64,000 nucleotides of DNA from Candidatus Aalborgicola bjergmarkensis (GTDB taxonomy: Bacteria; Pseudomonadota; Gammaproteobacteria; Burkholderiales; Burkholderiaceae_C): the NCBI GenBank assembly GCA_016708725.1, contig JADJFE010000002.1:150505-214504 (forward strand). The letters run 5' to 3'. The notes under the pieces were generated by a model. That model did not search any database, was not told the origin of the DNA, and saw only the letters and a list, made by a program, of their open reading frames with translations. Below are positions 24,084 through 63,788 of the stretch, in pieces. The translations under genes were made by a program, and so were the position numbers. Each line of letters begins with the position of its first letter. Position 1 is the stretch's first letter.

Positions 24084-24267
24084 TTACCTATCCCCAAACC
24101 CCCGCACCAGCGCCCGGCAAGCCGCCTCGGGGTCAGGTGCTTGGGTGATGGCTGAAATAACCGCTGCACTGGCTGCACCTGTGGCGCCCACTGCGGCCAC
24201 GTTGTCCATACCGATACCGCCTATGCCCACCACCGACAATGGCAGCAGGCCCGCCCAGTAGCGCAGG
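24084..24267 (-). pseudogene. thiE: thiE 3'-end fragment (copy adjoining resumed chromosome)
   Basis: LRYWAGLLPLSVVGIGGIGMDNVAAV.ATGAASAAVISAITQAPDPEAAC; homologous to 26361-26551 and 35141-35228. Confidence 0.85.
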
Positions 24268-24501
24268 CTACGAGCTTCGTGGCCTGCAAGAAAAGGAAAC
24301 TCCGCTTCTCCTCAAACTTGCCCGCAAGGCCGTTCTGGGCGCTATTCATGCAATTCCCATCTGGGCGAGAAAGCGATTGAAGAAACCACGGGCGTGGTGA
24401 CAATTGATGAGCTTGACTTGCACCTGCACCCCCAATGGCAAAGCACAGTCATTCAAGATTTGCTCACGGTTTTTCCAGTGCCTTTTCTCGCAGTACTGGC
24501 T

Positions 24502-25041
24502 TTAAAGCGATCGTTTTTTTCTAGGCGCTCTACCGGGACGATTAGGGACACCTGAGATTAGTTCAGTGTCTTGTGCTGGCGACATTTTAAGATTGTCTGG
24601 AATGGGCAAGGCAACTCCACGAAAACCTGCAGCCAATAGATGTTCTTCAGCTCGTTGCCTCGCCAGATAGTGCACCATGGCGAAGTAGGGGATCATTAGG
24701 TCATCAGGCATATCTGCCCAATTTTCGAATCCCCCCTTGCCCTGCAATTGAAAGAATGCCACTGAAGTGCACTCGTACTTGCACAACTGTCTGGCGTCTT
24801 TCTCAAAGCTCAATATCACGGTGTAATGTATCTTTACGCAAAAGTCAGTAACCTTCGTGTTTTCAGGGATGCTAAATTCAAACGTCGTAGTCGTTTCATT
24901 GCGGATTTTTGACTTCTCCCCTTTGCCATTTTGGAGAATAGGGTCAGTCGTAGATAGCTTCTCGTCAATTTGACGCACCTGACTTATCACTCCCATCAAG
25001 TACGCTGCCGTGCTCCCTTTTTTTTCACTTGGTTTTGTCAT
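24502..25041 (-). CDS. SecB-like chaperone (putative TAC chaperone)
   Basis: Beta-rich pattern FCVKIHYTVIL...CKYECTSVAFFQL then helix YFAMVHYLARQRAEEHLLAAGF..VALPIP resembles the SecB fold; third gene after a TA pair. Confidence 0.6.
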   Translation of the reverse strand: MTKPSEKKGSTAAYLMGVISQVRQIDEKLSTTDPILQNGKGEKSKIRNETTTTFEFSIPENTKVTDFCVKIHYTVILSFEKDARQLCKYECTSVAFFQLQGKGGFENWADMPDDLMIPYFAMVHYLARQRAEEHLLAAGFRGVALPIPDNLKMSPAQDTELISGVPNRPGRAPRKKRSL

Positions 25042-25286
25042 ATCTTGGTTTCCTGTGTGATGAAGAATATTTGGTAGCGCCTCAGAGCGTATTGCAAAAT
25101 CTAAATTTAATATAACGAAGACTATACTCCTCATTTTTTCCATGGACTTTGCGCAGGGAGAATCTGTTTCAATATAATCCTGATAATTGAAATGCAAATC
25201 ATATTCTTACCTGATTGCGTTGTTTGCTCTTGATCTCTAGATAATTTGATATAAGCGAGTATAAATTTATAGAAAATTATTACAAA

Positions 25287-25997
25287 TCAATAAGTTATAT
25301 TTCTCAATACACTCTCCGACTTGTGCGTCGCTACTTTTGCAATGCACAAATCCGAGGCACTACTGGAAAATTGAGTGCGATCATCCTCATGGCCTTCCAT
25401 ATCCTGTGTGATGGCTACGTTTGCATTGGCGCTTATTACGAGGCGACGCTGGTAAATATGGCCGCCATCGGTCGCCTCACTTATCAGACATTCACCGCCA
25501 CTACTTTGTGACTTGGTAATCTCAACTATCAGTTTTGGAACATCAAAGCGATAAGACCACTTCCCACCCACATGCGAAAGGACGATCTTGTCTGTTGGAA
25601 ATCGTGTGGCACCGTCATGAATTGACAGTATTTCGCCAATCGACACGCTGGGCTCGTATCGACCGAAAAATCGGGTGCGAATTGCCAAATCAACCAACTT
25701 TGGAACGGCGGCATCGGATTTCTCCAACCGCGCGACTGTCTGAGTATCGCGGTCGATCAACGTGCCAAAAACCTCTTGGGATATTTCAAGCCCACGCCTG
25801 AGAAATCGCAACTGGCGGCCATTCAGCCCTCTGGGAATGCGGACAAGAATTTTTCGAACACATGCCTCCAAGGCATCTTCGTCCACGTAAGAAACGATTT
25901 CACCGTACGACGACTCCTCTACCAAATATCCATTTTCCAGGTGGAGATTCGGCATGGCGAAATGTGGGTATGAAATCATGGCAATCTTGAAGTTCAT
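25287..25997 (-). CDS. MqsA/HigA-like XRE-HTH antitoxin with long C-terminal extension
   Basis: NLHLENGY, LNGRQLRFLRRGLEISQEVFG..IDRDTQTVARLEK HTH; about 90 extra residues at the C-terminus; ATGA overlap with the upstream gene. Confidence 0.75.
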   Translation of the reverse strand: MNFKIAMISYPHFAMPNLHLENGYLVEESSYGEIVSYVDEDALEACVRKILVRIPRGLNGRQLRFLRRGLEISQEVFGTLIDRDTQTVARLEKSDAAVPKLVDLAIRTRFFGRYEPSVSIGEILSIHDGATRFPTDKIVLSHVGGKWSYRFDVPKLIVEITKSQSSGGECLISEATDGGHIYQRRLVISANANVAITQDMEGHEDDRTQFSSSASDLCIAKVATHKSESVLRNITY

Positions 25998-26302
25998 TTG
26001 TCAGGGAAGACCGTTATTACGACCACCTTCTTGGCGGGGATCAACGACGCTGCGACGATGAGGGTCTCATGGTCCACTATCGCTTCAATTCGAAACGTGT
26101 ACTCGATATCTCCAGAACGGTTTGGAATTGTCGGACTCTCAGTGAATACGCCTTTTTTCAAGCACTCTTTGACTTGTCCCTTGTCAATTCCTCTCAGAGC
26201 CATCCTTTCTTCTGCATGGCGTGTCCAGCCGATTCGGTTGGCGGAAACCAAATGCCGAACTTCTGTGGCGACTTGAGCATCTGACAGCGGCTTATTCGAC
26301 AT
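25994..26302 (-). CDS. DUF4258 family putative toxin (RelE/MqsR-like fold)
   Basis: WTRHAEERMALRGI...V.ECLKKG...VVVITV. Confidence 0.8.
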   Translation of the reverse strand: MSNKPLSDAQVATEVRHLVSANRIGWTRHAEERMALRGIDKGQVKECLKKGVFTESPTIPNRSGDIEYTFRIEAIVDHETLIVAASLIPAKKVVVITVFPDK

Positions 26303-26360
26303 TTATGGCGCGAAGTATATACAAAAATCTATCAAAATGATAGATTTTAATTTAAGAAGG

Positions 26361-26551
26361 CCCCACTCCCGCACCAGCGTCCGGCAAGCCGCCTCGGGGT
26401 CAGGCGATTGGGTGATGGCAGAAATAACCATTGCGCTGGCTGCACCTGTGGCTCTCACCGCAGCCACGTTGTCCATGCTGATACCGCCGATGCCCACCAC
26501 CGGCAATGGCAGCAGGCCCGCCCAGTAGCGCAGGTTGTCCAGTCCTTGCAA
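26361..26551 (-). pseudogene. thiE: thiE 3'-end fragment (second copy)
   Basis: LQGLDNLRYWAGLLPLPVVGIGGISMDNVAAVRATGAASAMVISAITQSPDPEAAC. Confidence 0.85.
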
Positions 26552-26553
26552 AT

Positions 26554-26670
26554 CTACGACTTCCCCGTAAACGCCAGCTGCTGCAGCAAGGCGAACAGGG
26601 CGTCGAGTTGGGCCAGGGCCGTGCGGTGGGTGGCTTTGAGGGCTTCAATGGCTTGGGTGCGGGTGGCGAA
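26554..26670 (-). pseudogene. hsdS: Type I R-M specificity subunit C-terminal fragment
   Basis: FATRTQAIEALKATHRTALAQLDALFALLQQLAFTGKS-stop resembles the conserved HsdS terminal helix (LF.SL..RAF.GEL). Confidence 0.65.
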
Positions 26671-26698
26671 AAGTCAGACTTGACAGAGTATCAAGAAA

Positions 26699-27191
26699 CT
26701 AAAAGAGAATCTGCTTTACTTTCGCATTCAGTCGCGCCCGCTCAACCGCGTTATGCGACAAAAGCGGATGACTCCAGAGCGCTGTTCCGTGTTTCATCTG
26801 CGCAGCATTCAGCCGCCAAAGCTTTCCCGATGTTTTCAAGCGAATCGCCATATTGCTTTTTGAGTGGTTCAGGTTCACTCGACGTGCCGAGTAAAAACAC
26901 ACGATCTACCAAATCGAGGGGTATGTGCGCTTTGAACTTGGCGGTACGCTCTTCGACGTGATCATCAAAATCGATCAGCAGCACCAGATAGCGATTCGGA
27001 TACCGACGAAGTCCCGCAACGTGATCTTCTAGAAAGCTGCCAAGCACCTTGCCCCAGCCTCCGACGCGAGGCAACACCTGAATGTTGCGCGGCTTCAATG
27101 AGGGATCCAGAAGAAAACCGTTTGCGATATCGCGATCAGCATCGTCCTCTGGTACTACAAGCACATGGGGTTTATAGACGTTTACGCTCAC
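26699..27191 (-). pseudogene. TOPRIM-like partner of AAA ATPase, frameshifted near 26790
   Basis: HVLVVPEDDADRDIANGF acidic motif, LLIDFD; a plausible C-terminus (WSHPLLSHNA...KQILF) lies in another frame. Confidence 0.6.
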
Positions 27192-28177
27192 AACTCTAAC
27201 TCCCCAAGCATCAGCGACTTAATTACATCTGAATCAAAATCCAGTTCACCCAGCAGACGCTGCTGCGTTGGCTCCAAGTGGCTCTTGCGCTCCAAGAGCC
27301 AAGTGTTCTCATTTGAAAACTTGCGTATGGCCTCCTCGTTGTGGGTTGTCATGATGATCTGCCCTTGCCCCTCGAAGGCTCGCCGCAGATGCAACACAAA
27401 ATGGCCAACCTCCGCCAGCGAAAGGTAGTTATCCGGCTCATCCAAAAAACAAAAGATAGGCCCGTATGACTGGTTGGCTGCCACGATGACAGCACACAGA
27501 AAAAAGCACCTCTCTCCGTCTGACAGCTCATCAAAATTCAGAGGAAGTACACCACCTTCGCTCTTGAACTGAATGACTAACCGTTTGGACTCCTTACCCA
27601 AGCTTTCGTATTTGAAGTCCCGCAGGTCAGGCATTACATCTTTCAGGTAACTATCAATGGTGGTATAGGCCGCCGGATACTGCCCCAGCAAGCCAGCCAG
27701 CCAGTCCACCGTATTACTGGTGTCTGTCAATGGCCAAAGGGATTCGTCGTTAGACTCGCCCACCATTAACTGCGGCACCGGCGCAATGATCACCATCTGC
27801 GCCAGCCATGTCTTGAAAATGTGGACAGGATCGGTTTCGGACTGCACTTGAATCAGTGGCAGCGCCACCAGATGCCAATCCACCATGAACCGGGCATCGA
27901 TAGTCGCCTCAGGCAGCTTACGCAGCAGCGATACCTGCGCCTGCTCTCGCACATAGACGATGTCGCCTTGCAACTCCAGCTTCTCTTCCAGCACCCGCAA
28001 CTCTTTGAATTTCTCGGGCAATTCGAGGGCCAGGCTATAGCGATACCACTTATCCTGTAGTAGCACATCTACTACAAAGCGCATGGGCACTGCGGACTGA
28101 CCGCAAAAAAAATGGCGAGGGTTGACCAACTGCCCCACGCGATTCACCCCACGTCCAATGCTTTGCAACACTTGCAA
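27188..28177 (-). pseudogene. AAA_21-type ATPase, 3' part (gene split by IS insertion)
   Basis: FDELSDGERCFF signature, FLDEPDNYLS Walker B, IIMTTHN; begins exactly at the TTGCAA duplication. Confidence 0.88.
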
Positions 28178-29650
28178 CGGATCTTCCCCCTAGTCAACCG
28201 AGCAAAACTGCATCAACTAATTGATTTAATTCACTTTCTTTGAGTGGTCAATTTTCTTTTAGTGGACACATTGACTTCCTTGTTTGGTGATTTTGGCAAT
28301 CCAATGCCGGCATGTTCAAATAGTTTCTGGATTGCATCATTGGGAGTGGGGACACAGCGCACGATCTGATGATTCTCAGCACCCTTAACACTGAGCTCAT
28401 GCACACAAAGCGTGGTCAATTGAGCAACCCCCTCTGCCACTGTTACATCTAAATTGCGCCAGCGTTTAGCTAACTCTTGTACCAACCGATATGCCAACAT
28501 CACTACCAGGGCATGTCCGCGTGTGTGCGAAGCCAACCGCACGTATAGCGGACGCATTTCCAGCATAGTCTTGGAGGTGCGAAACGCCCACTCCATGTGC
28601 CAGATCCTTGTAGCGCGCGTGCGACTTCTTTGCTCGCTTTTTTGGCTTTTACATCGGTTTTTATCACGTAGCAGCCATCGAGTTGGGTGTGTTTTGATTT
28701 TGCCTGTGCGTCTTCTTTCAAACTGAGTATGCGCTCGTTGAGCGTCACGCTGACCCACGCCTGTAGTCCCAGCTCTTTGCATTTTTTCTCAATTCGCGCC
28801 AGCGCCAAATTGGTTTTGGCTCGTTTATGCTCGTCCAGGTACTGGTTGCTTTTGTCCAAAAGTGCCTGCAACCGCTCAAATTTGCTCTGATGTGAAGCTG
28901 CCAATTCACTCTGACGCACTGGGTTGCGCCGCAGCACGTAGCGCACCTGATCAACTCCGTCGCTGACCTCGGCCAAGCCATCCTTAAACAAGTCCATCCG
29001 CAATACACCAGACTTGAGCAAGCCCCTCAATCTGAGGTTTTGTAATGGCCGTAATGTATGAATACCCCTTTTTAGCAAGCAGCTCTATCTGTTCGCTTTT
29101 GATCATGCCCCGATCACCCACCAGCGTGACCTCTTTGGCTCCAAAACGCGCAGCGAGCTTGTCGATCCTTTGGCGCTCACGGAAATTGACCCACCCCTGC
29201 TCATTGGAATTGACCCACAGACTTTGGCTGAGAGTACGTTGGCATGTGGTGATAGACGAACCCACAGCTCTTGGATGAATGCCTGAGGCTGACGTTCTTG
29301 CGTATGTCAACCGCCATTGCTTGAATTAATTCGTTGTCCAGACTCAAGATATCGTTTGACAAAGGCAGGCTTGGTCAATGTGGGTACGGATAGTTGGTGG
29401 TCTGCCAAGACTATGAATTGGCACTGCGCCCGACAAGCGTGTAAAACGCAGATGTAATGAAGAACGGGCGCACCAACCGCTTTCGACCCGAACAAGTGAT
29501 TTCGGCTAGCGCGCCCCACCCGTATCAGCCACGAGTGCGCACCAATTATTGTCCCCAGTCGTGATCAATGTCCAGTGCTGAATGTGCTGTGAGCATGAAC
29601 CACGGATCGACTTTCGAGGTGTCCATTTGAGGCTCCAACAGGAGCGCTGA

Positions 29651-30108: not shown

Positions 30109-31065
30109 ATGACCGACTCCCTTGAAAGCCAGACCAGCAACACCCATGGCTTTGGCGCTCATGAACAAAGTGTGGGCGGGTACGTTGGCGCAAGACAAGT
30201 CGATTTACACCGCCTGGAGCTGCGCTTTGAGGCCACCCGCATCGCCGATACGGCGGCAGTGCAGCGACTGACTGAATCGATACGCACAAGCGGACAACTG
30301 GTAGCGTGCATTGCCGCTGACGACCAAGACAGTGGTGCCCTGGTACTGATTGACGGCTACCGGCGCCTGAGCGCGCTCAAGCGACTGGGCGCAGACACCG
30401 CCCTGGTGCAATGCTGGCACTGCCCGGTGGGGCCTGCGCTGGCACAGATGCTGGCCCACTCGTTCTCGCGGGCATTTGACCCCATGGAGGAAGCCCTCAT
30501 GCTGCGCGAGCTGATCGACTCCCTTGGCCTGAGTCAGCGCGAAGCTGCACGTCAATGCGCCCGTGATGTGAGCTGGGTACAGCGCCGCTTGGTACTACTG
30601 GGGGCACTGTCCCAGGACCTGGTGCAGGCGGTGCGCAGTGGGGGCATATCGAGTTGGGCGGGCTCACGCATTGTGGCCCCGTTGGCGCGCGCCAACAGCG
30701 AGCATGCCAGTCAACTACTGGCCAGCATGGCAAGCGACCACTTAAGTACGCGTGAACTGCAAGCCTGGTTTAGCCACTACCAAGCCGCCCAACACACGCA
30801 GCGCCAACGCATGGTGGAACACCCACGCCTGTTTATCGACAGCTTGAACGAGAGACAAAGCCAGAGCATTGCCAAAGACCTGCGGGGCGGACCTGAACGT
30901 GAGGTGGCTGCTGAGCTGGGTTACCTGCAAGCACTGCTGCAACGCGCACACCGACGCCTAGTGCCACTGACCGCCCCGTTGGAACCAACGCTAAAGGGCG
31001 CGTGTCTGCGCCTGCATGTAGCGCTGGAACAAGTGAACAACGAACTTACCAGGCTGGTGCCATGA
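30109..31065 (+). CDS. ParB N-terminal domain/HTH protein linked to istA
   Basis: LVLIDGYRRLSALKRLG, DPMEEA, LSQREAARQCARDVSWVQRRL; overlaps the istA start. Confidence 0.85.
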   Translation: MTDSLESQTSNTHGFGAHEQSVGGYVGARQVDLHRLELRFEATRIADTAAVQRLTESIRTSGQLVACIAADDQDSGALVLIDGYRRLSALKRLGADTALVQCWHCPVGPALAQMLAHSFSRAFDPMEEALMLRELIDSLGLSQREAARQCARDVSWVQRRLVLLGALSQDLVQAVRSGGISSWAGSRIVAPLARANSEHASQLLASMASDHLSTRELQAWFSHYQAAQHTQRQRMVEHPRLFIDSLNERQSQSIAKDLRGGPEREVAAELGYLQALLQRAHRRLVPLTAPLEPTLKGACLRLHVALEQVNNELTRLVP

Positions 31066-32519
31066 CCCCGATAGATATTCGTGCCAGTGTGCTCACCTTG
31101 CACCAACAGAGCACAGGTTTACGTGAAATCAGCCGGGTGCTGCATCTCTCGCGCAACACCGTGCGAGGCATCCTGCGCGAGCCACAAGGCGTGCAAACAC
31201 CTGCCCACCCGGTGAATGAGGTCACCCAACAACAACTCACCGAAGTCTATGCCAGAGCCAAAGGTAACGCCGTGCGTATGGCCCAGATACTGGCTGATGA
31301 GTACAAGCTGCACCCGCCCTACAGCACCCTCACGCGCTGGGTGCGCCAAGCTGAACTGCGCCAACCACCCAAGCGCTCCGGCGAATACCACTTCGAGCCC
31401 GGCCAGGAGATGCAGCACGACACATCGCCCCATAAGATGGAGGTGGCGGGCAAGAGCATTACCGCCCAGTGTGCAGGTCTGACCTTGGCGTACTCGCGGC
31501 GTTTGTTTATCTGGTACTACCCACGATTTACCCGCTTTGAGGCCAAGGACTTCTTGTTGCGCGCAGCCCAGTTCATGGACGGCACTTGCCCACTTTGCGT
31601 GATCGACAATACCAGCGTCATTCTCGCTGGTGGTGCTGGGCCTGATGCGGTATTCGCACCAGAGATGGCCGCCTTTGCACGCGCCCTGGGCTTCAAGTTT
31701 ATGGCACACCGTGTCAATGACCCTGATCGCAAAGCCAGAATCGAGCGCCCCTTTGCATGGGTTGAGGACAACTTCCTGCCTGGGCGCAGTTTTAGCTCTT
31801 TCGATGACTTGAACGCACAGGCGCTCAAGTGGTGCGTTGAAGTGGCCAATGCCAAGCCAAAACGCAGTCTGGGCATGGCACCTGAGGTGGCGTACGTGAT
31901 GGAGAAGCCTTACCTCACCAGCCTGTCAATCGTCTTGCCAGCAGTCTACGAGGTGTTTGAGCGGGTGGTGGACTTGTACGGTTTTGTCAGCGTCGACACC
32001 AACCGGTATTCGACACCTGAACGGCTGGTGAGTAAGACGGTGACGGTGTACAAGCATTACGCCAGTATCGAGATTCATTACAAACGCACCCTGGTGGCCA
32101 GTCATCCCCGTTTGCTGGGTGTGCGTGATGCGCGCTCCACCTTGCCCGGGCATCACACCATACCCAAACGCACGCCTCGCCAGCCTTCGCTACAGGCGCA
32201 GTTGTTGTGTGGTCAATCTCCTGTTCTTGATGCGTACGTCACAGCGCTCATCAAGCACCTCAATGGGCGTGGTACACGGGCACTGAACCGACTGCTACAG
32301 ATTAAACGGACCTACCCAGCGCAGCCGTTCCTAGCAGCGCTGGAGCAGGCGCTCAAGTACGGTCTGTTTGATTTGACGCGACTGGAGTCCATGGTGTTGC
32401 GCCATGTGGCAGGCGACTTCTTTGCGCTAGGTGAGAGCAGCCATGACAACCTCCCCAATGAACCGGATGATAAAGACGATGAGCAAACCAAAAACGACAG
32501 CGACCCCGACCCCGCGTGA
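31062..32519 (+). CDS. istA: IS21-family transposase
   Basis: HTH start; PGQEMQHD, LAYSR, IDNTS, KARIERPF (DDE), FVSVDTNRYS.P. Confidence 0.92.
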   Translation: MTPIDIRASVLTLHQQSTGLREISRVLHLSRNTVRGILREPQGVQTPAHPVNEVTQQQLTEVYARAKGNAVRMAQILADEYKLHPPYSTLTRWVRQAELRQPPKRSGEYHFEPGQEMQHDTSPHKMEVAGKSITAQCAGLTLAYSRRLFIWYYPRFTRFEAKDFLLRAAQFMDGTCPLCVIDNTSVILAGGAGPDAVFAPEMAAFARALGFKFMAHRVNDPDRKARIERPFAWVEDNFLPGRSFSSFDDLNAQALKWCVEVANAKPKRSLGMAPEVAYVMEKPYLTSLSIVLPAVYEVFERVVDLYGFVSVDTNRYSTPERLVSKTVTVYKHYASIEIHYKRTLVASHPRLLGVRDARSTLPGHHTIPKRTPRQPSLQAQLLCGQSPVLDAYVTALIKHLNGRGTRALNRLLQIKRTYPAQPFLAALEQALKYGLFDLTRLESMVLRHVAGDFFALGESSHDNLPNEPDDKDDEQTKNDSDPDPA

Positions 32520-33287
32520 GGCCTTGCACGCATTGCTAACGGAGTTGAAATTCAAAGGCATGGCGCGTGTGCTGGACAGCGAACTTGATCGCGCTGAGCG
32601 CAATGGCACCTCTTGCGCAGAGGTGGTGCAACGCCTGCTAAGCGAGCAGGCTTCGTTTCAGCGGGAACGCTCATTAGTCAATCGGGTGGCGCAGGCACAC
32701 CTGCCCTGGCAATGGACGATCGACACCTTTCCCTTTGATCGCCAAAGCGGGGTGAATAAGGCACAAATCCTCGGTCTTGCCGACTTGGAGTTTGTGCGTC
32801 GCGCCGACAATCTGGTGCTCATTGGTGGCACCGGCACCGGCAAGACCGGCATCGCTCTGGGACTATTGCGCCAGGCCTGCATCAATGGCTGGCGGGGGCG
32901 CTTTACAGTGCGCAGGCGCTGCTCGATGAGCTGTATGCCTCGCTGGCAGATCGCTCCACAACCAAGCTGCTCACGGCGCTTGCACGTATGCAGCCGCTTT
33001 GCATTGACGAGCTGGGTTACTTGAACTTGAAGACAGAACAGACCAACGCGTTCTTTCGTCTGATGGATCAACGCTATGGGCGGGTGAGCACCATCATCAC
33101 TACGAATTTGGACTACCCCCAGTGGTACGAGTTGTTTAACAACAAGCCGCTGGTCGATGCCTTGCTTGATCGGCTGCAGCACCACTGCATCACCATCCGC
33201 ATTGAAGGTGCATCTTTGCGCACCAGCGCACCTGCCACAGCACCTGTGCAGAGCTCAACCAGTCCTGCGAGCCCCAAGGCAAAGTAA
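32479..33287 (+). pseudogene. istB: IS21-family helper ATPase, 1-nt frameshift near 32903
   Basis: GGTGTGKT Walker A in one frame; IDELGY, STIITTN and ALLDRL.HH in another; restoring one T in CGCTTTACAGT gives GRFYSAQALLDEL. Confidence 0.9.
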
Positions 33288-34923
33288 AACCGTCTCACCA
33301 CCGCCGTGCAGTATCTGCTTGATGGATAAGTAGGGGGTCGGCGTGGATATGTGGACAAGCTTGCAAAACGCCCAGCTTGACCACATACCCACACCTCCCA
33401 CCCGTACTTACCCACAAGGGTCTTGCCCACGGGCCTGACGCGCTTCGCTTGCCAAATTGCCATTTGAAAATAAAACCATGAAGACCAATACCAAGACAAA
33501 AACCCGGGGCAACGCCATCCAGTTGCATACGCACAAAACGAGAACAGCTTAAATTAACTGAAAATTTTGTCTTGACTCTCAGTTCCACCTTACACCGGTT
33601 CACCAAGTATCAAAACCGGTATTCTGCCAACAACGCAAGAGCCTCGATTTGATCAGCAACGGTGATGGATGCAGCAATCAATCCATCACGGAAGGTGATC
33701 ATGCTCAGTCGAGCAGGGTGGCAACCCATGCTTGCGTAACCAAATTTCATCTTCAAACGGGTTGCTTCTTCAATGAACTGAAGTCGCTTCTTCACGCACA
33801 TTGGTCGAGCCAATGATCGCCGATTCTGTTTCCTGCAGGCCATCAAGTTACAAACAGCCGCGCAACCGGTGGGTCAGCTTTCTGTGAGCACAGGTGGGTC
33901 AGTTATTTTGAGCGCCGAAGGTCGATCTGGTTTTTTACTGTCTTGGGGTCTTGAGTATTGCCAGAAAATACCTCAATGCCCAGCGGCACTCCGTAGCCAT
34001 CGCACAGTAAACCAATGACAATCTGGCTTTTGCCCTTCTTGCCGTCCCGGTTGTAGCCAAAGGCTCCGAGTTCGTTACATGAACCCTCCAGATAACTGCT
34101 GGTGACATCGTAGAGAAACAGTCCATCTGATGTACGTTGTGCTGACTTGTTCGTAACCTGCTCAGGTGCGCTCTGTGTGTGATGCTGTGCGCTGTAGTTG
34201 CTTGCTTGAGAGTGTGTAAAAGCGTTTTCTCAATGAACTCCTGTTGCTCGGTGAGCCAACCAAGGTTTTGGTACAAATCGTCTTCATCAAAACGTGGCAA
34301 ATCCAAAATTCCGCATGCGTGAACGCGTGCCAGGCGCACCGCAGACAGCCGTGAGCCTTGGTCTATTGCGCGTGCCAACACCTGCCACAACGCAAGACGA
34401 CCTGCACGCTCTGAACCCAAAGCGCTCGTAATACCCAACTCACGCGCAAGTTCTGCGAGTAGCCAGATCGCACCAATGGACTGCCCTTGATGCAGTTGCG
34501 TGCATCAAATCAATGTCACTGACAACAGCGGTCTTTGCCTCAGCAATGGGGTGTCTAGCTGGGGTACCTTTGGGACAGAAATAGGCCCGTCAAGTTGAGC
34601 AGACAGCGTGCTCAATTGATCCTTGTGTTTGAAGGCCAAGCGCATGGCTGCAATATCTTGTTCAGAGCACTTGCTTAGGTTAGCAATGGTGCGATGCTTG
34701 ACCTTTCCGCCATCGCGAAAGCTTTCACGCAGAAGATAACGGGTGTATGATTTCTCGCCGTTACGAACAGTAGAAGCGTCGATATACATAGTGACTACAA
34801 ATATAGTCAAAAAACTGCAAATTACCAATGAAAAAATAAATTTTCTAAAGAAAAATTAGTGGCTACAAAATTGCTAAGTCATTGATTTAGATAGATGTGG
34901 CAAAGGTTATGGGGGAAGATCCG

Positions 34924-35055
34924 TTGCAATGCCTTGGCCACTGAAGACTTACCCGCACCGTTTTTGCCCAGTAACAGCGATGAATGCTTGCCTTGCGGCT
35001 TGAGCTCAAAGTTCTGAAAGGTCTTGAAATTGTGAATGTACAGACGTTGCAACAT
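34924..35055 (-). pseudogene. AAA_21-type ATPase, 5' part
   Basis: MLQRLYIHNFKTFQNFE...LLLGKNGAGKSS Walker A; joins in frame to 28177 across TTGCAA. Confidence 0.88.
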
Positions 35056-35140
35056 GTTGGCGCTACTCAAGTAAGAAACTAAACGAATTGTCGGCGATGT
35101 CCAACTCGGATTGAAAGCACCTTTTCCTGCGAAATGTTCT

Positions 35141-36058
35141 TCATTGACCCCCAAACCCCCGCACCAACGCCCGGCAAGCCGCTGCGGGGTCCGGCGACTG
35201 GGTGATGGCCGAAATCACCGCTGCGTAGGCGTGGCACAGTGCGTGGGTGGTGGCCATCTTGGCCAGCACCACAGCGTCGGCCACGCAGTAGCCACAAGCC
35301 AGCGCCGCAGCGGCGGTGGATGCAAAGGTGCAGCCAGTGCCGTGATGGTGATGGGTATTCACGCGCGGCAGGCTCAACCAGCCGCTGGTCTGGGCGCATT
35401 GCAGCCAGTCGCTGGCCAGGCCTGTGGCGGGTGCTGCGTCGCCCCCGGTGATGGCCAGCGGCGGCTGGTTCTTCGTACCAGATGTCTGCCCGATGTGCAG
35501 GCCCAGGCGCCTGGCTTCCGCGCGGTTGGGTGTGGCCAGGGTGGCGCGCGGCAGTAGCTCTTGCATGTAGGTCTGCACCAGTGCGTCGTCAGCAAAGCTG
35601 GCTCCGGTGGTGGCGCCCAGTACCGGGTCCACGACCAGGGCCAGCGCATGGCCTCTTCCCCGCAAACGGTCCACCCAGTCGCACACCACGCGCAGATTGT
35701 CCACGCTGCCCAGCAGCCCGGTCTTGATGGCCTGTGGCGGCAGGTCTTGTGCGAGCGCGGCCAGCTGGGCATCCAGCAGAGCGGCGCTGACCGGCTCCAC
35801 GTGTGTGACGGACACCGAGTTTTGCGCGGTGATGGCGGCCACTGCCGTACACCCATGCACGCCAAAGGCTTGCAAGGCCTTGAGGTCGGCCTGCAGTCCG
35901 GCGCCAGCACCTGGGTCGGAACCGGCCACGCTCCAGACCACGGGACGCATGTCGGCGGCCAGCGAGCGCACTTCAGTGCCAAATGTGCCTAATGTGCCTA
36001 ATGTGCTCAATGTGCTTGCAGCCCTTGTGGGATGTGCGGGAGCAGCTTCTTTTTTCAT
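35141..36058 (-). CDS. thiD: Hydroxymethylpyrimidine/phosphomethylpyrimidine kinase joined directly to the last about 25 codons of thiE
   Basis: SVAGSDPGAGAGLQADLK, TAQNS, IKTGLLG, VVDPV, TPNRAEA, HGTGCT; ends AVISAITQSPDP (ThiE tail). Confidence 0.9.
   Translation of the reverse strand: MKKEAAPAHPTRAASTLSTLGTLGTFGTEVRSLAADMRPVVWSVAGSDPGAGAGLQADLKALQAFGVHGCTAVAAITAQNSVSVTHVEPVSAALLDAQLAALAQDLPPQAIKTGLLGSVDNLRVVCDWVDRLRGRGHALALVVDPVLGATTGASFADDALVQTYMQELLPRATLATPNRAEARRLGLHIGQTSGTKNQPPLAITGGDAAPATGLASDWLQCAQTSGWLSLPRVNTHHHHGTGCTFASTAAAALACGYCVADAVVLAKMATTHALCHAYAAVISAITQSPDPAAACRALVRGFGGQ
35982..36017. repeat. 4 x 9-bp in-frame tandem repeat (AATGTGCYY) in the thiD 5' end
   Basis: AATGTGCCT AATGTGCCT AATGTGCTC AATGTGCTT. 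Confidence 0.8.
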
Positions 36059-63259: not shown

Positions 63260-63517
63260 TCAGGCGTGAGCTTGTGCTTCAAATGCAGCCACCGATACCG
63301 GGCGGCTCACTGCCACGGACCTGCGCAAAGTCTTGATGCGTTCAACTTCATGCATGGTTGCGGCGGTGAAATACGACTCGCCACAGTTTGAGCATGACCA
63401 TAGGGGGATGCCCTCAATAACAAGCAAGTTCGCACCTTTTCCAAAACTACGGGTGACGTGCTTGAGTTGTACCGACGGGCTACCGCAGTGCTCACAGATA
63501 TGTTGATTAGCAGACAT
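63260..63517 (-). CDS. YgiT-type zinc-finger (MqsA N-terminal-like) antitoxin
   Basis: CEHCG...LLVIEGIPLWSCSNCGESYF. Confidence 0.85.
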   Translation of the reverse strand: MSANQHICEHCGSPSVQLKHVTRSFGKGANLLVIEGIPLWSCSNCGESYFTAATMHEVERIKTLRRSVAVSRPVSVAAFEAQAHA

Positions 63518-63788
63518 AGGCAGTAATGACAATGAGTTTTCCGGTAAAACCGACTTTGACGACAACCTCTGCGGCGGTGCCATTGAGCGTAGTGCCCGCA
63601 ATTACAAACTTTGTTTCGTTTGTTCTGGTGTCGCGTTGCCGCTCAACGACATCCCCGGAAAGAACGATGCTCTCAAGGTCGAGGACTGAAAGGCCGTCAT
63701 CTTCAAGCTCTTCCGCAGCGTGTGACGAGACAAAGTAATCGAGGTTACGAACCAGCCGTCGGAAATGGTTGATCGTGTAACGTGCCAT
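63507..63788 (-). CDS. DUF4258 family putative toxin
   Basis: YFVSSHAAEELEDDGL...LSGDVVE...LIVITAY; overlaps the partner gene. Confidence 0.82.
   Translation of the reverse strand: MARYTINHFRRLVRNLDYFVSSHAAEELEDDGLSVLDLESIVLSGDVVERQRDTRTNETKFVIAGTTLNGTAAEVVVKVGFTGKLIVITAYVC

What the first reader, a model, noticed from the sequence alone, without database searches (positions are those of the whole stretch)
24502..26302. Putative new TAC variant: DUF4258 toxin, extended HTH antitoxin and SecB-like chaperone
Seen: a DUF4258 gene translationally coupled to an XRE-HTH gene carrying about 90 extra C-terminal residues, followed by a 179-aa protein with a SecB-like pattern. Established: HigBAC, MqsRAC and CmdTAC use a chaperone-addiction (ChAD) tail on the antitoxin, and several are anti-phage sensors. 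Inference: a TAC with a DUF4258 toxin inside a defence island. The 245-bp AT-rich gap before the chaperone could hold a separate promoter.
Basis: partly seen in the sequence, partly recalled or inferred. Interest (0 to 1): 0.7.

Follow-up and report, generated by a model that had tools for sequence, protein, structure and literature searches.

The report
DUF4258 toxin-antitoxin-SecB-fold chaperone triad
Three linked genes form a likely chaperone-dependent toxin-antitoxin module: an untested RNase-type toxin, a DNA-binding antitoxin with a floppy tail, and a helper predicted to fold like the SecB chaperone though sequence searches miss it.

Summary
On the minus strand lie g1 (25994-26302, DUF4258), g2 (25287-25979, MqsA-like XRE-HTH protein) and g3 (24502-25041, no family hit).

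- **g3:** the AlphaFold model has SecB topology. Its 18 best PDB matches are all SecB or the M. tuberculosis TAC chaperone Rv1957. No sequence model detects SecB in it.
- **g2:** residues 1-148 fold confidently. Residues 149-230 are predicted disordered and vary in sequence, like a chaperone-addiction tail.
- **Synteny:** the same three genes, in the same order, recur in all nine lineages examined, in unrelated flanks.
- **Operator:** a conserved palindrome (CTATCA-N3-TGATAG) sits upstream of g1 in eight of nine lineages.

Corrections:
- The "245-bp AT-rich gap" is a 302-bp insertion that g2 and g3 lack in seven lineages, where they overlap or lie 9 nt apart. It replaced the antitoxin's last residues.
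- The g1/g2 ATGA overlap is doubtful, because homologues start at Met7.
- The "defence island" is mostly broken genes.

The module is rare and horizontally acquired. I read it as a new variant of TAC systems. Toxicity, chaperone dependence and any anti-phage role are untested.

The parts
24478..26370 (-). Whole mobile module: promoter/operator, g1, g2, insertion and g3.
   Evidence: This 1893-bp stretch aligns at about 92% identity with the Rhodoferax sp. MAG contig JAYRRD010000115.1 (L001). Similarity stops at both ends.
26324..26348 (-). Operator-like palindrome AAAATCTATCA-TTT-TGATAGATTTT (core CTATCA-N3-TGATAG at 26329-26343). A TATACT -10-like hexamer follows at 26314-26319.
   Evidence: The core palindrome is found upstream of g1 in 8 of 9 lineages despite 35-90% protein identity. 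It occurs once in the 64-kb window, where 0.06 matches are expected by chance, and once in the 6.09-Mb genome. That the antitoxin binds it is inferred.
25994..26302 (-). g1: putative toxin, 102 aa, DUF4258 (BECR/RelE-ParE superfamily).
   Evidence: PF14076 at E 6.1e-9, 36.5 bits against a cut-off of 25. His29 is invariant, and R37, E55 and D77 are nearly invariant, across 10 sequences. dN/dS against L001 is 0.37.
25287..25979 (-). g2: putative antitoxin, 230 aa from Met7 (236 aa if the ATG at 25997 is used). It has an N-terminal beta domain, an XRE HTH, a beta hairpin, and a disordered tail (residues 149-230).
   Evidence: TIGR03830 MqsA family, partial match at E 5.5e-6. HTH_31 match. phrog_5119 over residues 1-102 at E 5.7e-15. 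AlphaFold gives pLDDT about 90 for residues 1-148 and below 50 for 149-230. The tail is unalignable among 15 homologues. dN/dS is 0.17 for the core and 0.71 for the tail.
25067..25368 (-). 302-bp AT-rich insertion with imperfect terminal inverted repeats of about 29 nt. It supplies the last ~26 codons and the stop of g2, and the 245-nt gap before g3.
   Evidence: Absent from L006 in a base-by-base alignment. Shared with L001. The inverted-repeat score exceeds all 500 shuffles. It is single-copy in the own genome and absent from 150 genomes of the same family. The old end of g2 (HRKPRYDKTK-stop) is still readable across the g3 start.
24502..25041 (-). g3: SecB-fold protein, 179 aa, putative dedicated chaperone.
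   Evidence: No Pfam, NCBIfam, PADLOC or PHROG hit. AlphaFold topology is b1-b2-b3-b4-a1. The top 18 Foldseek PDB hits are SecB or Rv1957. Profile-profile comparison against a 30-sequence SecB alignment gives E 8.5e-4 and Prob 24%, in the right register. The family has 94 representatives among 1.84 billion proteins.
26365..26534 (-). Upstream flanking copy of the thiE 3' end.
   Evidence: It forms a 170-nt direct repeat at 91% identity with 24098-24267. PF02581 TMP-TENI, profile positions 136-180 of 180.
24098..24267 (-). Downstream flanking copy of the thiE 3' end.
   Evidence: A third, shorter copy ends the thiD ORF at about 35141-35225.

Best explanation
This is a tripartite toxin-antitoxin-chaperone (TAC-type) module of about 1.9 kb that was acquired horizontally.

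Proposed mechanism:
- g1 is a small DUF4258 toxin of the RelE/ParE (BECR) superfamily, most likely an RNase that blocks translation.
- g2 is its antitoxin. An MqsA-like N-terminal domain without the zinc-binding cysteines would bind the toxin.
- An XRE helix-turn-helix in g2 would bind the conserved CTATCA-N3-TGATAG palindrome over the promoter and autoregulate the operon.
- A disordered, fast-evolving C-terminal tail of about 80 residues would act as a chaperone-addiction element.
- g3 is a very divergent SecB-fold protein. It would bind that tail and keep the antitoxin soluble and protected from proteases.
- Anything that titrates g3 away or destabilises g2 would free the toxin. In the characterised TAC defence systems (CmdTAC, HigBAC) that trigger is a phage structural protein.

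Shown here: family membership of g1, the HTH of g2, the predicted disorder and variability of the tail, the predicted SecB fold of g3, strict three-gene synteny, and the conserved palindrome.

Inferred: toxicity, RNase activity, tail-chaperone binding, autoregulation, and any phage trigger.

In this genome and in one Rhodoferax MAG, a 302-bp insertion replaced the last residues of the antitoxin tail and uncoupled g3 from g2. All three genes have nevertheless stayed intact and under purifying selection since then.
For: 1. Toxin: PF14076 above the cut-off. Conserved His/Arg/Glu/Asp positions.

2. Antitoxin:
- HTH plus a partial MqsA family match.
- Folded core at residues 1-148 and a low-confidence tail at 149-230.
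- The tail does not align among 15 homologues, whereas the core is 35-89% identical.
- dN/dS is 0.17 for the core and 0.71 for the tail.

3. Chaperone:
- SecB topology.
- SecB and Rv1957 are the 18 best PDB hits.
- SecB-annotated phage proteins are among the best BFVD hits.
- Profile-profile alignment to SecB is in the right register at E 8.5e-4. The PYF...RAE...GF.G..LP.P motif aligns with SecB's FPY.R...GFP.l.L.P.NF.

4. Synteny:
- g1, g2 and g3 keep the same order in nine lineages: window, L001, L003, L006, L010, L013, L014, L047 and L048.
- The flanks are unrelated: HicAB, an Mrr nuclease, a serine recombinase, WGR/DUF4132 genes, and inovirus-like Zot genes with an integrase.
- g2 and g3 overlap by 14-35 nt in six lineages.

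5. A conserved palindrome lies upstream of g1 in 8 of 9 lineages and is unique in the genome.

6. dN/dS against L001 is 0.37, 0.35 and 0.43 for g1, g2 and g3.

7. The genome has a separate canonical SecB (183 bits), so g3 is not the housekeeping copy.

8. T-A-C gene order and a variable ChAD tail are the published TAC hallmarks (PMC3581621, PMC5105189).
Against: - No experiment and no complex model links the tail to g3.
- SecB similarity rests on one AlphaFold model built from only four sequences (pLDDT 71; the five models range from 45 to 71).
- HMMER profiles find no SecB, and hhalign probability is only 24%.
- The tail (about 80 aa) is longer than the ChAD regions swapped by Bordes 2016 (30-41 aa).
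- No short, chaperone-free relatives of g2 were found to show that the tail is an addition.
- In this genome the native tail end is replaced by insertion-encoded residues, and g3 has lost its overlap with g2. This copy could therefore work differently or less well.
- DUF4258 toxicity has never been tested (PMC11980606).
Confidence: 0.68

Rival explanations
1. The triad is a real three-component toxin-antitoxin system, but g3 is not a chaperone for the antitoxin tail. The SecB fold would be co-opted for another role. Candidates are a direct second inhibitor of the toxin, a co-repressor, or a stand-alone sensor or adaptor that delivers g2 to a protease.
For: Only the fold, not the function, is predicted. 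g3 is too far from SecB for any sequence model. Its conserved C-terminal motif differs from that of SecB. The window's copy tolerates a changed tail end.
Against: Every SecB-fold protein so far found next to a TA pair and tested acts on the antitoxin's C-terminal extension (PMC5105189, PMC6377645, bioRxiv 10.1101/2024.02.24.581848). The antitoxin has exactly such a disordered, variable tail. The gene order is the TAC order.
Confidence: 0.15
2. In this genome the module is a decaying remnant. The insertion damaged the antitoxin tail and uncoupled g3, so the cassette is silent or only partly functional cargo in a junkyard of broken genes.
For: - The 302-bp insertion lies inside the 3' end of g2.
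- The neighbours are fragments: two thiE tails, an AAA_21 fragment, and an ATPase split by nested IS1634/IS21.
- Promoter-like matches in the region are at chance level: 3 found against 2.9 expected.
Against: - All three ORFs are intact.
- The same insertion is kept in a second genome at about 92% identity, with dN/dS of 0.35-0.43 in all three genes since their split.
- The palindrome is perfect here.
- g3 keeps its AGGA ribosome-binding site.
- An intact toxin without a working antitoxin should be counter-selected.
Confidence: 0.12
3. g3 is an export chaperone paralogue or an unrelated small beta-sheet protein, and it sits beside an ordinary two-gene DUF4258/HTH pair by chance.
For: No sequence family match for g3. 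The AlphaFold model has moderate confidence.
Against: g3 homologues were found beside g1 and g2 homologues in nine of nine lineages, usually with overlapping reading frames. The genome already has a canonical SecB. The family is absent from 60 relatives and from 400 genomes of the phylum, so it is not housekeeping.
Confidence: 0.03

Closest known systems
MqsRA-SecB TAC systems (for example V. cholerae RC385 MqsR-MqsA-SecB^TA, Bordes 2016, PMC5105189), and the 'MqsA-like antitoxin plus unknown ORF' TAC class of Sala 2013 (PMC3581621)
   Same: Toxin-antitoxin-chaperone gene order. The antitoxin is built as an N-terminal toxin-binding domain, an XRE HTH and a C-terminal extension. The third gene has a SecB fold. 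The toxin is a small RNase-superfamily protein.
   Different: - The toxin is DUF4258, not MqsR.
- The antitoxin lacks both CxxCG zinc motifs and scores below the MqsA family cut-off (26 against 62 bits).
- The third protein is not detectable with the SecB Pfam model, which those surveys used.
- The tail is about 80 aa rather than about 40.
M. tuberculosis HigB1-HigA1-SecB^TA (Rv1955-Rv1957), the TAC paradigm (PMC5105189, PMC6377645; PDB 5mtw)
   Same: Rv1957 is among the best structural matches to the g3 model (E 1.2e-5). Both have a disordered C-terminal ChAD-type extension on an HTH antitoxin, and the operon order is T-A-C.
   Different: The toxin family is different (gp49/HigB). Rv1957 is recognisably SecB by sequence and can replace E. 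coli SecB. Nothing suggests that for g3.
CmdTAC and HigBAC anti-phage TAC systems of E. coli (PMC11618068; bioRxiv 10.1101/2024.02.24.581848)
   Same: A mobile three-gene TAC layout, found in accessory islands and prophages. One relative here sits in an inovirus-like element (L047). These systems are the model in which a phage structural protein triggers the toxin through the chaperone-antitoxin contact.
   Different: The toxins differ: CmdT is an mRNA ADP-ribosyltransferase. There is no defence phenotype, no PADLOC model match, and no evidence of phage sensing here.
Two-gene DUF4258 + YgiT/MqsA-type pairs, including the one in this window at 63260-63785, and the DUF4258-MqsA fusions listed in PMC11980606
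   Same: The same toxin family is paired with an MqsA-related antitoxin. The toxin gene comes first.
   Different: Those pairs have no third gene. The window's second antitoxin is a zinc-ribbon-only protein of about 85 aa with no HTH and no tail. The two toxins are only 19% identical.

Membership tests
DUF4258 (PF14076) toxins of the RelE/ParE BECR superfamily | Match to the Pfam model above the gathering score. | tested here: met
   36.5 bits against a cut-off of 25, E 6.1e-9, model positions 1-70 of 71.
DUF4258 (PF14076) toxins of the RelE/ParE BECR superfamily | Toxic (RNase) activity. | not testable with these tools
   The family is described as uncharacterised in PMC11980606. Only conserved His29, Arg37, Glu55 and Asp77 were seen.
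MqsA antitoxin family (TIGR03830, CxxCG_CxxCG_HTH) | Family model above the cut-off, and two CxxCG zinc-binding motifs in the N-terminal domain. | tested here: not met
   26.2 bits against a cut-off of 61.8. Only model positions 41-114 are matched. There are no Cys pairs in residues 1-33. The protein is therefore 'MqsA-like' only.
XRE-type HTH transcription factors | A helix-turn-helix domain of the lambda/P22 repressor type. | tested here: met
   HTH_31 at E 0.006. The profile of 15 homologues hits P22 C2 and CylR2. Foldseek of the model finds P22 c2, C.AhdI, HipB and HigA HTH domains with prob 0.9-1.0 but E above 0.01.
SecB family (PF02556) | Sequence match to the SecB model. | tested here: not met
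   No hit at E <= 1 for g3. No hit at E <= 0.1 for any of the 83 family members. The same model finds the genome's true SecB at 183 bits.
SecB-like fold (SecB and TAC chaperones) | A four-stranded antiparallel sheet followed by a long helix, superposable on SecB. | tested here: met
   Predicted model only. Strands at 14-31, 46-57, 66-79 and 85-103, helix at 113-137. The top 18 PDB hits are SecB or Rv1957, with TM 0.51-0.78 on the target. hhalign against a SecB profile gives E 8.5e-4 and Prob 24%.
Tripartite TAC systems | A conserved operon in the order toxin, antitoxin, SecB-like chaperone. | tested here: met
   Nine of nine lineages. g2 and g3 overlap in six of them.
Tripartite TAC systems | A C-terminal ChAD extension on the antitoxin that is unstructured, variable, and absent from two-component relatives. 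| tested here: inconclusive
   The disordered, variable tail at 149-230 is shown. g2 extends about 110 residues beyond the end of the MqsA family model. No short relatives were found for a direct comparison.
Tripartite TAC systems | The antitoxin needs the chaperone to neutralise the toxin. | not testable with these tools
   This needs co-expression assays.
Anti-phage defence systems (PADLOC catalogue) | Match to a known or candidate defence-system model. | tested here: not met
   No PADLOC hit for g1, g2 or g3 at E <= 1. Only the broken neighbouring ATPase matches AbiLi, HEC-01A and AriA models.

The most novel reading that the evidence does not exclude
The g3 proteins are an unrecognised family of SecB-fold chaperones: about 94 clusters at 50% identity, with no Pfam, NCBIfam, PHROG or PADLOC model. 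They are found only with DUF4258/MqsA-like pairs. The triad would be an abortive-infection-type phage sensor carried by islands and filamentous prophages. This would show that surveys seeded with SecB sequence miss TAC systems, and it would give the first functional handle on the roughly 6,000-member DUF4258 toxin family.
Probability: 0.3. Interest if true: 0.7.

Novelty: new variant of a known kind. Interest (0 to 1): 0.52.

Why it matters
TAC systems are the best-understood case of a chaperone acting as a switch for a toxin, and two of them are proven phage sensors. The known examples were all found by searching for SecB-like sequences.

This triad suggests that the same design exists with a chaperone that sequence searches cannot see. 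It also uses a toxin family (DUF4258) that a 2025 review lists as undescribed.

It offers a compact, testable system of 1.9 kb with three small proteins and a clear operator. It could be used to ask whether chaperone addiction is more widespread than catalogued and what DUF4258 toxins do.

The natural insertion variant in this genome is a ready-made experiment on how much of the tail is needed.

Tried and rejected
- **Sequence route to SecB failed.** Pfam, NCBIfam, PADLOC and PHROG scans of g3 gave no hit. phmmer and hmmsearch against PDB gave only noise. None of the 83 family members matches PF02556. hhalign against a single SecB gave E 0.16 and 0.017. Only a 30-sequence SecB profile gave a marginal E of 8.5e-4.
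- **Insertion as a MITE: not confirmed.** It has inverted-repeat ends. No second copy exists in the own genome or in 150 genomes of the family.
- **Short, chaperone-free relatives of g2: none found.** A search with residues 1-115 returned nothing.
- **Foldseek of the full g2 model** gave only weak HTH hits and no MqsA, probably because of the disordered tail.
- **Plasmid and phage collections:** no g3 relative.
- **The stretch 26570-26690,** which looks to me like the C-terminal end of a type I HsdS, gave no Pfam hit. That reading rests on my knowledge only.
- **A separate g3 promoter in the gap:** two sigma-70-like matches lie inside the insertion, but the count is at chance level.
- **One preprint on BECR RNases that mentions DUF4258** could not be opened.
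Full report
**What is there**

Three minus-strand ORFs fill 24502-26302.
- g1 (25994-26302, 102 aa) matches Pfam DUF4258 above the curated cut-off: 36.5 against 25 bits, E 6.1e-9.
- g2 (25287-25997) has a weak HTH_31 match and a partial, sub-threshold match to the MqsA family model TIGR03830. That match covers residues 34-107 against model positions 41-114 at E 5.5e-6.
- g3 (24502-25041, 179 aa from the ATG) matches nothing in Pfam, NCBIfam, PADLOC or PHROGs.

Three details need correction, and they are covered below.

**Is g3 SecB-like?**

A word-indexed search of 5.8 billion proteins found only four g3 clusters. An exhaustive HMM search of 1.84 billion representatives found 94 at E below 1e-3.

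An AlphaFold2 model built from four sequences has mean pLDDT 71 and pTM 0.63. Its order of elements is four long strands followed by a long helix.

Foldseek against the PDB returned, as ranks 1-18, only three kinds of protein:
- H. influenzae SecB (1fx3, 1ozb);
- E. coli SecB (1qyn);
- the M. tuberculosis TAC chaperone Rv1957 bound to its ChAD peptide (5mtw).

These hits have E 2e-6 to 1.3e-4 and TM 0.51-0.78 normalised on the target. SP1558-like SecB-superfamily proteins follow, and then noise. Against viral models, phage proteins annotated as SecB rank among the top six.

Sequence methods do not see the relationship:
- None of the 83 family members hits PF02556 at E <= 0.1.
- The 83-sequence profile finds no SecB chain in the PDB.
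- A profile-profile comparison with 30 SecB sequences taken from genomes of the same phylum gives only E 8.5e-4 and Prob 24%.

That last alignment is in the structurally correct register. It lines up the family's conserved PYF...RAE...GF.G..LP.P motif with SecB's FPY.R...GFP.l.L.P.NF.

The genome has its own canonical SecB elsewhere at 183 bits. I conclude that g3 is very probably a SecB-fold protein from a family too divergent for current sequence models. This rests on one moderate-confidence model.

**Is the trio a unit?**

Every context I could recover for a g3 or g2 homologue shows the same order: a DUF4258 gene (100-109 aa), a g2 homologue (212-252 aa), then a g3 homologue (156-187 aa).

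| Locus | Source or flanking genes |
|---|---|
| L001/L002 | Rhodoferax sp. MAG, beside WGR/DUF4132 genes |
| L003-L005 | metagenome contigs |
| L006-L009 | metagenome contigs |
| L010-L012 | beside HicAB |
| L013 | Azonexus hydrophilus, near a serine recombinase |
| L014/L015 | beside an Mrr-type nuclease |
| L047 | between inovirus-type Zot/DUF2523 genes and an integrase |
| L048 | very distant member; the toxin gene was not called but is present as a 109-aa DUF4258-like ORF |

With the window, that makes nine lineages, all with the triad, in unrelated flanks. In six of them g2 and g3 overlap by 14-35 nt. In L013 they are 9 nt apart.

A palindrome, CTATCA-N3-TGATAG, lies upstream of g1 in eight of the nine lineages and is usually followed by a -10-like hexamer. 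In the window it is a perfect 11+11 palindrome at 26324-26348. It is the only match in the 64-kb window, where 0.06 are expected, and the only one in the 6.09-Mb genome.

The natural reading is an operator for the HTH protein over a single operon promoter. Binding is inferred.

**The antitoxin and its tail**

An alignment of 15 g2 homologues shows strong conservation over residues 1 to about 150 and no alignable conservation afterwards.

The AlphaFold model built from that alignment is confident (pLDDT about 90) for three parts:
- an N-terminal beta domain plus helix (residues 1-45);
- the HTH (residues 54-121);
- a hairpin (residues 132-145).

It is below 50 for residues 149-230.

Between the window and L001, dN/dS is 0.17 for codons 1-150 and 0.71 for the rest.

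The N-terminal domain matches the MqsA model region that follows the zinc ribbon, but it lacks the cysteines. 'MqsA-like' is therefore as far as the evidence goes. Residues 1-102 also match phrog_5119, a phage family of unknown function.

A disordered, variable C-terminal extension on an HTH antitoxin that is encoded between a toxin and a SecB-fold gene is the published signature of chaperone addiction (PMC5105189, PMC6377645).

Two caveats apply. This tail is about twice as long as the ChAD segments swapped in those studies. I also found no short, chaperone-free relatives for comparison.

1. All 14 homologues begin at the window's Met7 (MISYPHFA...). The likely start is therefore the ATG at 25979, 14 nt after the g1 stop, exactly as in L001. 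The ATGA overlap at 25994-25997 may not be used.

2. The 245-bp AT-rich gap is part of a 302-bp insertion (25067-25368).
   - Base-by-base alignment with L006 shows the window matching on both sides of a clean 302-bp gap.
   - The insert has imperfect terminal inverted repeats of about 29 nt, with a score above all 500 shuffles.
   - The former end of g2 (HRKPRYDKTK-stop, against YRKQTYDKTN-stop in L006) is still readable across the g3 start codon.
   - The insertion supplies the last ~26 residues and the stop of g2.
   - It is shared with the Rhodoferax MAG, but it is single-copy in this genome and absent from 150 genomes of the family. I cannot call it a MITE.
   - Two promoter-like matches fall inside it, at chance frequency.
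   - g3 keeps its AGGA ribosome-binding site.

3. All three genes are intact in both insertion-bearing genomes, with dN/dS of 0.35-0.43. This argues that the module still works.

**Context**

The unit shared with the Rhodoferax MAG is 24478-26370, at about 92% identity. It lies between two 170-nt direct repeats at 91% identity that are 3' ends of thiE. A third, shorter copy ends the thiD ORF at about 35141-35225.

The rest of the 11-kb island contains:
- an AbiLi/HEC-01A/AriA-like ABC ATPase split into an N-terminal piece (34879-35154) and a C-terminal piece (27188-28177);
- an IS1634-family element that splits it, itself interrupted by IS21;
- a 146-aa partner ORF;
- an AAA_21 fragment on the plus strand (24394-24480).

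'Defence island' is thus only loosely true.

The triad is absent from 60 relatives, including 36 of the same genus, and from 400 genomes sampled across the phylum. A pattern scan of 185,579 species genomes found it only in the Rhodoferax MAG and in Azonexus hydrophilus. It is rare accessory cargo.

**Comparison with the literature**

Published TAC systems pair SecB-like chaperones with HigBA, MqsRA, HicAB and CmdTA. Sala 2013 also noted 'MqsA-like' antitoxins with unknown-ORF toxins (PMC3581621).

A 2025 review of RelE/ParE toxins lists PF_DUF4258 (about 6,000 members) as undescribed. It notes DUF4258-MqsA fusions but no TAC link (PMC11980606). Only two papers in the library contain both 'DUF4258' and 'SecB', and they are two versions of that review.

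An unchecked note from this scan reports a DUF4258 TAC cassette in another genome, so the toxin/chaperone combination is probably not unique.

What is distinctive here is the chaperone family, which is invisible to the SecB-seeded searches on which TAC surveys relied (bioRxiv 10.1101/2024.02.24.581848).

**Verdict**

This is a real, conserved, mobile three-gene module that fits the TAC design on every point that can be checked computationally. It uses an uncharacterised toxin family and a cryptic SecB-fold partner. It is a new variant of a known kind.

Toxicity, chaperone addiction and any anti-phage role remain to be shown. My confidence in the TAC mechanism is about 0.68.

Noticed in passing
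window 24084-24267, 26303-26551, 35141-35225: Three copies of the thiE 3' end (PF02581 positions 136-180) partition an 11-kb island. The thiD ORF (35141-36058) ends in a ThiE-like tail (…AVISAITQSPDPAAACRALVRGFGGQ) with no thiE body. This suggests recombination between the copies.
   Followed up: partly
window 34879-35154 and 27188-28177 (minus strand), with 26751-27191: A defence-type ABC ATPase (AbiLi/HEC-01A/AriA-like) is split into N- and C-terminal parts about 6.7 kb apart. The cause is an IS1634-family element (fragments at 28231-29310 and 33935-34438) that is itself interrupted by IS21 istA/istB (31002-33287). A 146-aa downstream partner has no family match.
   Followed up: partly
L003/L004, L006, L013 (about 60-95 nt upstream of g1): A conserved GC-rich hairpin, CCCCCGTGTTACTTNNACGGGGG, precedes the promoter/operator in three otherwise different contexts. 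L001 and the window keep only a similar 3' arm (…CGGGGGGTGGAGCC / …CGGGAGTGGGGCC) at the point where similarity begins. It could be the cassette boundary, a recombination site or a terminator.
   Followed up: no
L047 1-5018: A distant member of the triad sits between inovirus-type genes (DUF2523, Zot) and a tyrosine integrase. It may therefore be carried by a filamentous prophage.
   Followed up: no
window 63260-63785 (minus strand): A second, unrelated DUF4258 pair. The toxin is about 92 aa and 19% identical to g1. The antitoxin is a YgiT-type zinc ribbon of about 85 aa with no HTH, no tail and no third gene. It serves as a natural two-gene comparator in the same genome.
   Followed up: partly
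window 24394-24480 (plus strand) and about 26570-26690 (minus strand): Two short gene fragments flank the module. One is an AAA_21/AAA_15 D-loop fragment (VTIDELDLHLHPQWQ; Pfam E 0.002). The other ends …LDALFALLQQLAFTGKS, which resembles an HsdS C-terminus but has no Pfam hit.
   Followed up: partly
window 25994-26302 / 25287-25979: The -10-like TATACT lies only 11 nt before the g1 ATG, and no Shine-Dalgarno sequence is visible before g1 or g2. The operon mRNA may be leaderless or nearly so.
   Followed up: no
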